DNA of 64,000 nt from positions 96,001 through 160,000 of the IMG/VR virus record IMGVR_UViG_3300045988_085380, one strand, 5' to 3'. The position numbers were made by a program, and so were the translations under genes. The notes below the pieces were generated by a model. That model did no database searches and was not told the origin of the DNA. It saw only the letters and a program-made list of their open reading frames with translations. Numbering within the stretch: position 1 is the first letter of the stretch; each line of letters starts with the position of its first letter. Below are positions 30,716 to 31,046 of the stretch, in pieces. This DNA is from a virus.

Positions 30716-31046
30716 GGGGCATTCGTGGTTTTGAACTTCGAGGAGATAAGAAACACAGCAAGACAACTTGGATAGACAAGTAAAAAATTAATTGGCGAAG
30801 TAAATAACACTTCTGTTTCTTACGCTATCGCAGCCTAAGAAACCGAGCAGCACTTGCTTAGGAACAGAAAGGTGCACTATTCTTTCATTTCTTATAAGTT
30901 CTCTGTATACTTTAGGAACAGAGTGGTGGAAGTTGACAATGTTAATCTTGTCAACCCTAACAGACAAGGACAGTCTTTAAAACCTATGCTGTAAGAACGT
31001 TTTGATGCAAATCGGAGTGACTGGAGTTCAACTCTCCAATGCTCCA
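30716..31046 (+). ncRNA. ssrA: tmRNA (ssrA-like), tag ORF 30794..30838 encoding GEVNNTSVSYAIAA
   Basis: 5' GGGGCAT pairs with 3' ATGCTCC (G3.U70 present). T-arm TGGAG-TTCAACT-CTCCA; discriminator A. Resume codon GGC GAA... and the ...YAIAA-TAA tag resemble Bacteroidota tmRNAs. Confidence 0.8.

What the first reader, a model, noticed from the sequence alone, without database searches (positions are those of the whole stretch)
30716..31046. Phage-encoded tmRNA with a Bacteroidota-like tag
The 5' GGGGCAT pairs with the 3' ATGCTCC, including the G3.U70 alanine identity pair. This is followed by discriminator A and preceded by a T-arm TGGAG-TTCAACT-CTCCA, which is the tRNA-like domain of a tmRNA. 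Internally, GGC GAA GTA AAT AAC ACT TCT GTT TCT TAC GCT ATC GCA GCC TAA encodes GEVNNTSVSYAIAA. The GGCGAA resume context and ...YA(L/I)AA ending resemble Bacteroides tmRNA as I recall it. A terminator follows at 31086-31116. A phage that suppresses stop codons while supplying its own trans-translation RNA is functionally intriguing. Possibilities include rescue of ribosomes on readthrough or non-stop host mRNAs, or altered tagging, since the tag is longer than typical host tags.
Basis: partly seen in the sequence, partly recalled or inferred. Interest (0 to 1): 0.7.

Follow-up and report, generated by a model that had tools for sequence, protein, structure and literature searches.

The report
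Phage-encoded tmRNA in crAss-like phage
A large gut phage related to crAssphage carries its own complete copy of the ribosome-rescue RNA (tmRNA) with a tag resembling that of its Bacteroidota hosts; it is real and under selection, but phage tmRNAs are already known, so this is a well-supported new example, not a new kind of thing.

Summary
Confirmed. Window 30716-31046 (+) is a complete one-piece tmRNA (ssrA) gene. ARAGORN calls it (tag GEVNNTSVSYAIAA*). Rfam RF00023 scores 50.4 bits (threshold 47, E 7e-17).

Related copies occur in 66 loci from human-gut phage and metagenome contigs (up to 242 kb). In all 57 fully parsed copies, every acceptor, T-stem and P2a pair is kept through compensatory changes. 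G3.U70 and A73 are kept in all of them, and the tag frame is kept in five peptide variants. The RNA is therefore under selection as a tmRNA.

The window is a distant crAss-like phage. It reads TAG as a sense codon in some genes and carries a Gln-like tRNA(CUA).

The resume context and tag are Bacteroidota-type: UAAUU|GGC GAA, as in Segatella and Prevotella, whose tag is GENNYALAA. The rest of the RNA shows no detectable similarity to host ssrA, so this is not a recent capture. The gene is about 65 nt shorter than host genes. The PK1 position holds a hairpin, and PK2-PK4 are unverified. No smpB was found in the window.

Phage tmRNAs are known (2.3% of phage genomes), and RefSeq already annotates permuted tmRNAs in crAss-like phages cr50_1 and cr10_1. 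This is a new member of a known kind. The proposed link to stop-codon suppression is untested, and some evidence points against it.

The parts
30716..31046 (+). One-piece tmRNA (ssrA) gene, from G1 to the discriminator A. The 3' CCA is not encoded (the sequence continues CTA).
   Evidence: ARAGORN 30716-31047. Rfam RF00023 30716-31049, 50.4 bits against GA 47.
30716..30722 (+). Acceptor stem 5' strand GGGGCAT. It pairs with 31039-31045 and G3 pairs with U70.
   Evidence: Sequence. 7/7 pairs in all 57 parsed homologues, across three compensatory acceptor variants (CAT/ATG, CTA/TAG, ATG/CAT).
30723..30734 (+). D-loop analogue TCGTGGTTTTGA, with no D stem.
   Evidence: Aligned to the tmRNA model's D-loop region with high posterior probability.
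30735..30741 (+). P2a 5' strand ACTTCGA. It pairs with 31012-31018 (TCGGAGT).
   Evidence: RNAalifold: 5 of 7 pairs show changes on both sides and none is broken. 7/7 pairs in 57 homologues.
30750..30760 (+). P2b/P2c 5' strands (GAAAC, ACAGCA). They pair with 30999-31003 and 30987-30992.
   Evidence: RNAalifold consensus. Nearly invariant (one pair alternates A-U/G-U), so the pairing is predicted but not tested by covariation.
30766..30781 (+). Hairpin ACTTG-GATAGA-CAAGT at the position of pseudoknot PK1.
   Evidence: The outer C-G pair becomes G-C in the second family variant (GTTG-GAGAGA-CAAC). No second helix that would make a pseudoknot was found.
30782..30793 (+). Single-stranded resume context AAAAAATTAATT, with U at -5, A at -4 and A at -3.
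   Evidence: In 120 Bacteroidota host tmRNAs, -5 is U in 109, -4 is A in 119 and -3 is A in 100. The 18-mer that includes GGCGAA is identical in L055 (Segatella copri) and L089.
30794..30838 (+). Tag reading frame GGC...GCC, encoding GEVNNTSVSYAIAA, plus the stop TAA.
   Evidence: ARAGORN coding part 79-123. The frame and the hydrophobic ending are kept in five peptide variants.
30810..30847 (+). P5 helix. The 3' half of the tag frame (30810-30825) pairs with the stop codon and the bases after it (30833-30847).
   Evidence: RNAalifold: pairs 106:132 (UA 12, CG 8) and 109:129 (CG 16, AU 4) change on both sides.
30850..30976 (+). 3' domain in the place of PK2-PK4. It is almost invariant in the family. 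It contains hairpins (for example GTTGACAA/TTGTCAAC at 30932-30955) and candidate H-type pseudoknots.
   Evidence: Low posterior probability in the Rfam alignment. RNAalifold helices. Pseudoknot candidates from my own enumeration. None is verified, because the sequences barely vary here.
31012..31018 (+). P2a 3' strand TCGGAGT.
31022..31038 (+). T-arm TGGAG-TTCAACT-CTCCA.
   Evidence: 4 of 5 stem pairs change on both sides across the family with none broken.
31039..31046 (+). Acceptor 3' strand ATGCTCC plus discriminator A.
30687..30709 (+). Conserved hairpin AAGAGTTC-TAATTTA-GGACTCTT, 6 nt upstream of the mature 5' end.
   Evidence: Sequence. It stays with the tmRNA in most homologous loci even where the upstream gene differs; it is truncated in L003. 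Its function was not tested.
31049..31067 (+). Short hairpin AGTTC-ATA-GAACT followed by GTTTTT, directly after the gene.
   Evidence: Sequence. Conserved, with minor changes in some copies, in the related loci. Too weak to be called by the terminator scan.
31086..31120 (+). Intrinsic-terminator-like hairpin (12 pairs) with a T-run.
   Evidence: Terminator scan. Conserved in the homologous loci.
8034..8106 (-). Suppressor tRNA(CUA), Gln-like. It is context for the recoding claim and is not part of the tmRNA.
   Evidence: ARAGORN and Rfam tRNA hits. Its D-arm matches that of the phage tRNA-Gln(UUG) at 18775-18846.

Best explanation
Window 30716-31046 encodes a functional one-piece tmRNA. It is carried by a lineage of large crAss-like phages of gut Bacteroidota.

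Shown:
- The gene has all the sequence-level determinants of a tmRNA.
- Those determinants are maintained by selection in dozens of phage genomes.

Inferred mechanism, from established tmRNA biology:
1. The RNA is cut out of a longer + strand transcript. RNase P makes the 5' end. The 3' end is trimmed and CCA is added, because CCA is not encoded.
2. Host AlaRS charges it with alanine through G3.U70 and A73.
3. Host SmpB and EF-Tu bind it.
4. It enters ribosomes stalled with an empty A site.
5. Translation resumes at GGC (30794), positioned by the U(-5)A(-4) context.
6. The nascent chain receives A-GEVNNTSVSYAIAA, and translation ends at TAA. TAA is still a stop in this phage's TAG-recoded code.
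7. The ribosome is recycled. The hydrophobic ...YAIAA end, like the host's ...YALAA, most probably directs the product to host tail-specific proteases (ClpXP, Lon or Tsp type).

Most likely benefit: extra ribosome-rescue capacity in an infected cell, where host mRNA is being degraded and translation is heavily loaded. This is the same logic as for the 13 tRNA genes in the window. Any special role in coping with TAG suppression is possible but not shown.
For: Detection: two independent methods find it (ARAGORN; Rfam 50.4 bits against GA 47, E 6.6e-17).

Selection on structure: in 57 fully parsed homologues, 7/7 acceptor, 5/5 T-stem and 7/7 P2a pairs are kept. They are kept across three acceptor/T-arm variants and three P2a variants. 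G3.U70 and A73 are invariant. RNAalifold finds 11 pairs with changes on both sides, and none of them is broken in any sequence, in P2a, the T-arm and P5.

Selection on coding: the tag variants (GEVNNTSVSYAIAA, GEVNNTSASYAIAA, ARVINMTPVSYAIAA, ARVINMTPAYQAAA) keep the frame, a hydrophobic A-rich end, and a TAA or TGA stop, never TAG.

Resume context: UAA at -5..-3 matches 120 Bacteroidota host tmRNAs. The 18-mer is identical to those of Segatella copri and a Muribaculaceae MAG.

Spread: 26 IMG/VR contigs, 39 metagenome contigs from many human-gut assemblies, and GenBank MT835492.

Context: it lies on the same strand as, and between, the phage tRNA clusters, and a terminator follows it.

Precedent: phage tmRNAs are documented (PMC7162821, PMC9004378, PMC4131195).
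Against: - There are no expression data.
- No promoter was identified. There is no sigma-70-like site and no Bacteroidota TAnnTTTG motif within 400 nt upstream.
- The Rfam score is only 3.4 bits above threshold, and the pseudoknot region aligns with low confidence.
- The PK1 position holds only a hairpin, and PK2-PK4 cannot be verified because the region does not vary.
- No smpB was found in the window, so function would depend on compatibility with host SmpB. That is untested for an RNA this diverged from host ssrA.
- The tag is 5 residues longer than host tags and ends AIAA, not ALAA. Protease recognition is therefore assumed, not shown.
Confidence: 0.78

Rival explanations
1. The tmRNA is specifically an accessory of the phage's TAG-to-Gln code switch. 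It would rescue ribosomes that stall at TAG while release factor 1 and the suppressor tRNA compete. It would also rescue ribosomes that read through TAG-terminated host or early-phage messages and run to the 3' end. Its tag would dispose of the aberrant products.
For: The phage does use TAG as a sense codon and carries a Gln-like tRNA(CUA). All tag variants stop at TAA or TGA, never TAG. Prevotella Lak megaphages have tblastn matches to SmpB; from my own recollection they also use TAG recoding. From established knowledge, loss of RF1 activity in E. coli increases tmRNA tagging at UAG.
Against: The tmRNA lies in the + strand block, where genes use the standard code. The suppressor tRNA is on the opposite strand, next to the recoded genes. 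The phage's own TAG-terminated early genes have in-frame TAA backups 1-4 codons later, so readthrough would seldom give non-stop complexes. The crAss-like phage cr50_1 has a tmRNA but shows no recoding in the genome half that holds portal, TerL and MCP. 2.3% of phage genomes carry tmRNAs (PMC9004378), and that survey does not tie them to recoding. TAG is rare in a 31% G+C genome anyway, so its absence as the tag stop is weak evidence.
Confidence: 0.2
2. The RNA mainly manipulates the host instead of rescuing ribosomes for the phage. Either it titrates host SmpB and so damps host trans-translation, or its longer, altered tag sends tagged (mainly host) proteins to a different fate than the host tag does, for example amino-acid recycling or escape from the host degradation adaptor.
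For: A TLD-only tmRNA in mycobacteriophage DS6A has been proposed to inhibit tmRNA by titrating SmpB (PMC4131195). Selective tagging of host proteins has been proposed for phage Melnitz (PMC9004378). The tag here is 14-15 residues against 9 in hosts, and it differs in the middle.
Against: A pure SmpB decoy would not need the tag frame, the resume context or the P5 helix. All three are conserved, and P5 shows compensatory changes. The C-terminal YAIAA/QAAA endings stay close to the host degron YALAA, which argues for ordinary proteolytic tagging.
Confidence: 0.12
3. It is a non-functional passenger: either a decaying copy of a host ssrA, or the ssrA-derived part of an attachment site left by integration into the host tmRNA gene.
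For: tmRNA genes are common integration sites, and prophage records often carry ssrA or smpB at their ends; most SmpB matches in the phage collection look like this (PMC9004378). The gene is shortened, and its pseudoknot region is atypical.
Against: The gene is full length, with both halves of the tRNA-like domain. Compensatory changes keep every tested helix in 57 copies. It has no significant nucleotide similarity to host ssrA outside about 20 nt, so it cannot serve as a recombination site or be a recent capture. No integrase domain was found among the neighbouring ORFs scanned.
Confidence: 0.03

Closest known systems
Chromosomal one-piece tmRNA (ssrA, Rfam RF00023) of gut Bacteroidales (Segatella/Prevotella, Bacteroides, Parabacteroides, Muribaculaceae)
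   Same: Both have the same architecture at the two ends and the same resume context (UAAUU|GGC GAA). The 18 nt are identical to Segatella copri L055. The tag starts GE and ends YA-x-AA. CCA is usually not encoded.
   Different: Host genes are 394-400 nt with 9-residue tags (GENNYALAA/GETNYALAA). The phage gene is about 331 nt with a 14-residue tag. There is no significant nucleotide similarity outside the resume region. P2 is shorter, the PK1 position holds a hairpin, and the 3' domain cannot be aligned.
One-piece tmRNAs of other phages: mycobacteriophages of the Bxz1 group, Bacillus phage G (PMC4131195), huge phages (PMC7162821), and 402 of 18,146 phage genomes in a survey (PMC9004378)
   Same: Each is a complete ssrA carried by a lytic-type, tRNA-rich phage. 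The presumed role is the same: keeping the hijacked translation apparatus running.
   Different: The host phylum and phage lineage differ. Huge phages often also encode SmpB, and none was found in this window. I did not compare sequences with those phage tmRNAs.
Permuted (two-piece) tmRNAs annotated in RefSeq for Crassvirales, family Suoliviridae: cr50_1 (NC_055868) and cr10_1 (NC_055875)
   Same: Both are tmRNA genes in crAss-like gut phages, placed among small early-region genes. Tags end in hydrophobic residues (GNNFVTDYTAIGA, GNNFVTDYTQLAVA).
   Different: Those are circularly permuted (Rfam RF04321, 60.3 and 49.6 bits). The window's gene has standard order; RF04321 gives it only 17.3 bits. 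The tags are unrelated, and the phages have genomes of about 99 kb in a different family. cr50_1 shows no recoding signal in its structural genes.
Two-piece tmRNA of marine phage Melnitz and the pelagimyophages (PMC9004378)
   Same: It is a phage-borne ssrA lying in an early transcription unit, with the same functional hypotheses.
   Different: It is permuted, controlled by a glutamine riboswitch, and of alphaproteobacterial type. No riboswitch was found here.

Membership tests
tmRNA, one-piece (Rfam RF00023) | Covariance-model score at or above the curated gathering score | tested here: met
   50.4 bits against 47, over the full model 1-374, E 6.6e-17. The margin is small. Relatives score 48.9-59.4 bits.
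tmRNA, one-piece (Rfam RF00023) | 7-bp acceptor stem formed by the 5' and 3' ends, with the G3.U70 alanine identity pair and discriminator A | tested here: met
   GGGGCAT/ATGCTCC plus A. Kept in all 57 parsed homologues through three compensatory variants.
tmRNA, one-piece (Rfam RF00023) | T-arm (5-bp stem, 7-nt T-loop of type UUCRANU) and a D-loop analogue without a stem | tested here: met
   TGGAG-TTCAACT-CTCCA and TCGTGGTTTTGA. 4 of 5 stem pairs covary. A sister allele (TLD type B) has a non-canonical loop, GGCAGTA.
tmRNA, one-piece (Rfam RF00023) | Long helix P2 joining the tRNA-like domain to the body | tested here: met
   P2a has 5 of 7 pairs with changes on both sides and none broken. 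P2b and P2c are predicted but nearly invariant.
tmRNA, one-piece (Rfam RF00023) | Short internal reading frame with no start codon. A resume codon follows a U(-5)A(-4) context. The tag ends in hydrophobic alanine-rich residues, and the stop lies in or next to helix P5. | tested here: met
   Tag GEVNNTSVSYAIAA*. The context matches 120 host tmRNAs. P5 pairs the stop region with the tag frame and shows 2 compensatory pairs.
tmRNA, one-piece (Rfam RF00023) | Pseudoknot PK1 upstream of the resume codon | tested here: inconclusive
   Only a 5-bp hairpin with one compensatory pair was found at that position. No second helix was seen.
tmRNA, one-piece (Rfam RF00023) | Pseudoknots PK2-PK4 downstream of the tag | tested here: inconclusive
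   Posterior probability is low in the Rfam alignment. Candidate H-type pseudoknots exist, but the region is almost invariant, so no covariation test is possible.
tmRNA, one-piece (Rfam RF00023) | Alanylation, SmpB and EF-Tu binding, and tagging activity on stalled ribosomes | not testable with these tools
   This needs biochemistry or proteomics.
tmRNA, one-piece (Rfam RF00023) | Expression as a discrete stable RNA | not testable with these tools
   No transcript data are available. A terminator follows the gene, and no promoter was recognised.
Permuted two-piece tmRNA (Rfam RF04321) | The acceptor/T-arm piece lies upstream of the coding piece, and the score reaches the gathering score | tested here: not met
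   17.3 bits against 47, covering only the tag region. The gene order is standard.
Recent capture of host Bacteroidales ssrA | Nucleotide similarity to host ssrA along the gene | tested here: not met
   blastn and nhmmer against 120 Bacteroidota ssrA loci find only the 18-27 nt resume region (best E 0.018).
ssrA-derived attachment site or prophage-end fragment | A partial ssrA (the 3' end) identical to the host gene, next to an integrase | tested here: not met
   The gene is full length. Its 3' end differs from host 3' ends. No integrase was found among the neighbours scanned.

The most novel reading that the evidence does not exclude
The phage tmRNA is an adaptation to the phage's own genetic-code switch. 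It would clear ribosomes that stall or run off messages when TAG changes from stop to glutamine during infection. If so, trans-translation would be a built-in component of phage stop-codon recoding.

A second unusual reading concerns the sister allele with a non-canonical T-loop and D-loop (TLD type B). Standard tools do not detect it. It could be a re-engineered tRNA-like domain that works with altered partners.
Probability: 0.2. Interest if true: 0.65.

Novelty: new member of a known kind. Interest (0 to 1): 0.4.

Why it matters
crAss-like phages are the dominant viruses of the human gut. How they take over Bacteroidota translation, through tRNA sets, suppressor tRNAs and code switching, is an active question.

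This work shows that a widespread lineage of large crAss-like phages maintains its own diverged tmRNA under selection. That adds ribosome rescue to the list of translation functions these phages bring with them.

It also gives concrete reagents for experiments: a defined tag peptide to look for in metaproteomes and a defined RNA to look for in metatranscriptomes.

There is a practical lesson for annotation. About half of the family's alleles (TLD type B) and the intron-split alleles were missed by ARAGORN (and, where tested, by Rfam at its gathering score), so phage tmRNAs are under-counted.

It does not change what is known about tmRNA or about phages in general.

Tried and rejected
1. Recent host capture. 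I fetched 120 Bacteroidota ssrA loci and compared them by MAFFT, blastn and nhmmer. Only the resume region matches, so I rejected this.

2. Permuted tmRNA. RF04321 gives 17.3 bits. Rejected for the window, but true for the crAss-like phages cr50_1 and cr10_1.

3. smpB or other rescue or release factors in the window. None was found. The window is only part of the genome.

4. Promoter. There is no sigma-70-like site upstream and no Bacteroidota TAnnTTTG motif within 400 nt.

5. Pseudoknots. I enumerated H-type candidates. One attractive candidate, GUUGACA/UGUCAAC with UGUUA/UAACA, is contradicted by uncompensated changes in relatives and by a loop that is too short. The others cannot be tested because the region is invariant.

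6. Assignment to the 'Zeta' crAss-like group. The contig sizes, tRNA load, introns and recoding all fit. However, the contig names I tried are not in the supplement of PMC7886860, and no named Zeta genome matched, so this stays an inference.

7. Literature on tmRNA in crAss-like phages. Neither the full-text search nor term look-ups in the two main comparative papers, PMC7886860 and PMC12386605, turned up any description of one. The other papers I opened mention tmRNA only through ARAGORN or Pharokka methods or references, one counts tmRNAs in unspecified gut viral genomes, and one reports the host's own SsrA. Seven of the 18 full-text hits were opened.

8. The count of structure pairs on alignment A3. 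I did not use it, because MAFFT offsets the 5' acceptor strand of the type B alleles by one column. I counted pairs with an anchored script instead.

Full report
OBSERVATION

- GGGGCAT (30716-30722) pairs with ATGCTCC (31039-31045), including G3.U70.
- A31046 is the discriminator.
- TGGAG-TTCAACT-CTCCA (31022-31038) is a canonical T-arm.
- GGC GAA GTA AAT AAC ACT TCT GTT TCT TAC GCT ATC GCA GCC TAA (30794-30838) encodes GEVNNTSVSYAIAA.

ARAGORN reports a tmRNA at 30716-31047 with that tag. Rfam's tmRNA model RF00023 matches 30716-31049 end to end at 50.4 bits. The gathering score is 47 and E is 6.6e-17. In the model alignment, the tRNA-like domain and the resume/tag region have high posterior probability, but the pseudoknot region does not. 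The terminator-like hairpin at 31086-31113 is confirmed.

WHAT CARRIES IT

The window is 31% G+C. It has 13 tRNA genes and one RAGATH-1 hammerhead.

Its DnaB-like helicase (51483-52616) has almost only Crassvirales as annotated relatives, at 23-27% identity. DNA-level relatives are the unannotated record 'Bacteriophage sp.' MT835492 and IMG/VR viral contigs.

TAG is a sense codon in a subset of genes:
- 1309-2916(-) has 25 in-frame TAGs.
- A GIY-YIG endonuclease gene at 2980-3636(-) has 7.
- A YkuD-domain gene at 20954-22015(+) has 20.
- The Pfam domains of the last two align straight through the TAG positions.

The tRNA(CUA) at 8034-8106(-) shares its D-arm with the phage tRNA-Gln(UUG). Most + strand genes around the tmRNA have no in-frame TAG.

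So this is a distant crAss-like phage with block-wise TAG-to-Gln recoding. Its features fit the 'Zeta' group of PMC7886860 (145-192 kb genomes, many tRNAs, many introns), but I could not confirm that assignment.

IS THE RNA UNDER SELECTION?

Pattern scans gave 26 IMG/VR contigs (94-225 kb) and 39 metagenome contigs from many independent human-gut assemblies (up to 242 kb). Some contigs are shared between the two sets. MT835492 is an additional copy.

The family is mosaic.
- There are three tRNA-like-domain variants. Type A has acceptor GGGGCAT/ATGCTCC and T-stem TGGAG/CTCCA. Type B has GGGGCTA/TAGCTCC and GACGG/CCGTC. Type C has GGGGATG/CATCTCC and AGGGG/CCCCT.
- There are three P2a variants: ACTTCGA/TCGGAGT, TTGTATA/TATGCAA and TTGTCTA/TAGGCAA.
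- These combine with several tag variants.

In all 57 fully parsed copies, every one of the 7 acceptor, 5 T-stem and 7 P2a pairs is a standard pair. G3.U70 and A73 never change.

RNAalifold on 20 distinct sequences finds 11 pairs with changes on both sides, and none of these 11 is broken in any sequence. They lie in P2a, the T-arm and helix P5. P5 pairs the 3' half of the tag frame with the stop codon region.

The hairpin at the PK1 position has one compensatory pair.

The tag frame is kept in every variant: GEVNNTSVSYAIAA, GEVNNTSASYAIAA, ARVINMTPVSYAIAA and ARVINMTPAYQAAA. The stops are TAA, TGA or TAATAA.

This is strong evidence for a functional tmRNA and against a relic.

RELATION TO THE HOST

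A scan for GE-x-NYALAA tags returned 120 Bacteroidota ssrA loci. Gut Bacteroidales genes are 394-400 nt with tags GENNYALAA or GETNYALAA.

The phage tag reads like an expanded version of the host tag: G E (V) N N (TSVS) Y A I A A.

The 18 nt AAAAAATTAATTGGCGAA around the resume codon are identical in Segatella copri and in a Muribaculaceae MAG. The 14-mer also occurs in two Prevotella loci.

In the 120 hosts, -5 is U in 109, -4 is A in 119 and -3 is A in 100. Both phage resume contexts have UAA there. From my own knowledge, U85 and A86 of E. coli tmRNA occupy these positions and set the reading frame.

Outside this short region, blastn and nhmmer find nothing significant. The phage gene is also about 65 nt shorter.

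The gene is old and diverged, not a recent capture and not an attachment-site fragment.

WHAT IS MISSING OR UNCERTAIN

- PK1 appears to be reduced to a hairpin.
- The 3' domain (30850-30976) is nearly invariant across the family. Its hairpins and candidate pseudoknots therefore cannot be tested by covariation.
- No promoter was recognised. The phage tRNAs lack such motifs too, so processing from a long + strand transcript is the likely route (inference).
- CCA is not encoded here (the sequence reads ACTA). Some relatives have ACCA.
- No smpB or other rescue factor was found in the scanned ORFs of the window. The RNA would therefore depend on host SmpB, unless the rest of the genome encodes one.

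MECHANISM

I commit to ordinary trans-translation. Host AlaRS, SmpB and EF-Tu would deliver the RNA to stalled ribosomes. Translation would resume at GGC 30794, add A-GEVNNTSVSYAIAA and terminate at TAA. The product would be handed to host proteases through the ...YAIAA end. The benefit would be extra rescue capacity during takeover. All of these steps are inferred from the anatomy and from established tmRNA biology; none was shown here.

From my own recollection, loss of RF1 raises tmRNA tagging at UAG in E. coli, and the TAG-recoded Lak megaphages of Prevotella have SmpB matches.

Four observations speak against a strict link:
- The tmRNA sits in the standard-code block, on the opposite strand to the suppressor tRNA.
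- The phage's own TAG-terminated early genes have TAA backups 1-4 codons downstream.
- The crAss-like phage cr50_1 has a tmRNA but no recoding signal in its structural genes.
- tmRNAs occur in 2.3% of phage genomes generally (PMC9004378).

COMPARISON WITH WHAT IS KNOWN

Phage tmRNAs have been reported for the following:
- mycobacteriophages of the Bxz1 group and Bacillus phage G (PMC4131195);
- huge phages, together with SmpB (PMC7162821);
- 402 of 18,146 phage genomes in a survey (PMC9004378).

RefSeq already annotates 'transfer-messenger RNA, SsrA' in two Crassvirales genomes, cr50_1 and cr10_1. I find these to be permuted tmRNAs (RF04321, 60.3 and 49.6 bits) with unrelated tags.

None of the papers I opened or searched describes a tmRNA in crAss-like phages. 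Neither of the two main comparative papers mentions one.

The window's gene is therefore a new, well-supported member of a known kind: a one-piece, reduced, Bacteroidota-type tmRNA of a large crAss-like lineage.

VERDICT

The functional speculation is untested and somewhat disfavoured. Interest is moderate (0.4).

The more unusual things are in the relatives, not in the window itself:
- an allele class with a non-canonical T-loop that ARAGORN does not call, and that Rfam at its gathering score also missed in the four loci tested;
- alleles split by a group I intron in the T-loop.

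Noticed in passing
L001:3986-4321, L005, L012, L014, L138-L144, L146, L147 and many metagenome loci (relatives, not the window): About half of the family's alleles carry a different tRNA-like domain (type B). The acceptor is GGGGCTA/TAGCTCC and the T-stem GACGG/CCGTC. The T-loop GGCAGTA is non-canonical, and the D-loop AACTAGTATTTGA is changed as well. 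All helices pair and G3.U70 is kept. ARAGORN calls no tmRNA in the type B loci scanned, and Rfam at its gathering score found none in the four it was run on (L001, L005, L012, L014). The D-loop and T-loop change together, which may reflect a co-adapted tertiary contact.
   Followed up: partly
L015:9866-10743; also L162, L173, L183 (TLD type A) and L182, L188 (TLD type C): A group I intron (Rfam RF00028, 85.9 bits) splits the tmRNA T-loop between TT and CGACT, and splicing would restore TGGAG-TTCGACT-CTCCA. The intron holds an antisense 209-aa ORF. The intron segment that pairs with the 5' exon reads GGACTCGG with exon GGAGTT and GGACCCGG with exon GGGGTT, so the guide sequence covaries with the exon. 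No type B allele has the intron. From memory, a T-loop group I intron is known in the Clostridium botulinum tmRNA gene.
   Followed up: partly
L149:2440-2935 (NC_055868 cr50_1) and L150:2440-2825 (NC_055875 cr10_1): Two Suoliviridae crAss-like phages carry permuted tmRNAs (RF04321, 60.3 and 49.6 bits; tags GNNFVTDYTAIGA and GNNFVTDYTQLAVA). They are annotated in RefSeq but are not mentioned in any paper I opened. A tRNA-like match lies at or across the 3' end of each annotated tmRNA feature. RAGATH-22, RAGATH-9 and a Hatchet ribozyme lie just upstream.
   Followed up: partly
window 12423-12507 (+): RAGATH-1 hammerhead ribozyme, 70.6 bits against a gathering score of 56.3.
   Followed up: no
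window 34325-38178 (+) and 44771-45550 (+): A cluster of unusual cargo lies a few kb downstream of the tmRNA: two TerD-domain proteins (34325-34969 and 35071-35697) and an 819-aa P-type cation-transporting ATPase (35719-38178). Further on there is an SPFH/Band 7 protein.
   Followed up: no
window 719-3866 (-), 6075-7251 (+), 20954-22015 (+): Code use is block-wise. These genes are full of in-frame TAG (up to 25 per gene), while most other + strand genes have none. The recoded genes include a GIY-YIG homing-type endonuclease and a YkuD (L,D-transpeptidase) domain protein that sits within the tRNA region.
   Followed up: partly
window 24969, 41279, 61592 (+): Standard-code genes that end in TAG have an in-frame TAA 1, 3 and 4 codons further on. 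These look like backup stops for when TAG is suppressed.
   Followed up: no
window about 20120-20671 (+): A 550-bp patch is 93% identical to IAS virus at a place where that record annotates two DNA primase pieces. This suggests a shared mobile insertion (an intron or homing element) and not a shared primase gene.
   Followed up: no
L005:7491-7576 (-): ARAGORN reports an 86-nt 'tRNA-Stop' with anticodon TTA in a relative that also has the tmRNA. Rfam scores it as a tRNA (47.2 bits). The single-sequence fold is poor, so it may be an intron-containing or mis-registered tRNA and not an ochre suppressor.
   Followed up: partly
window 19436-19795 (+): A small LytTR DNA-binding domain protein lies between the tRNA clusters.
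   Followed up: no
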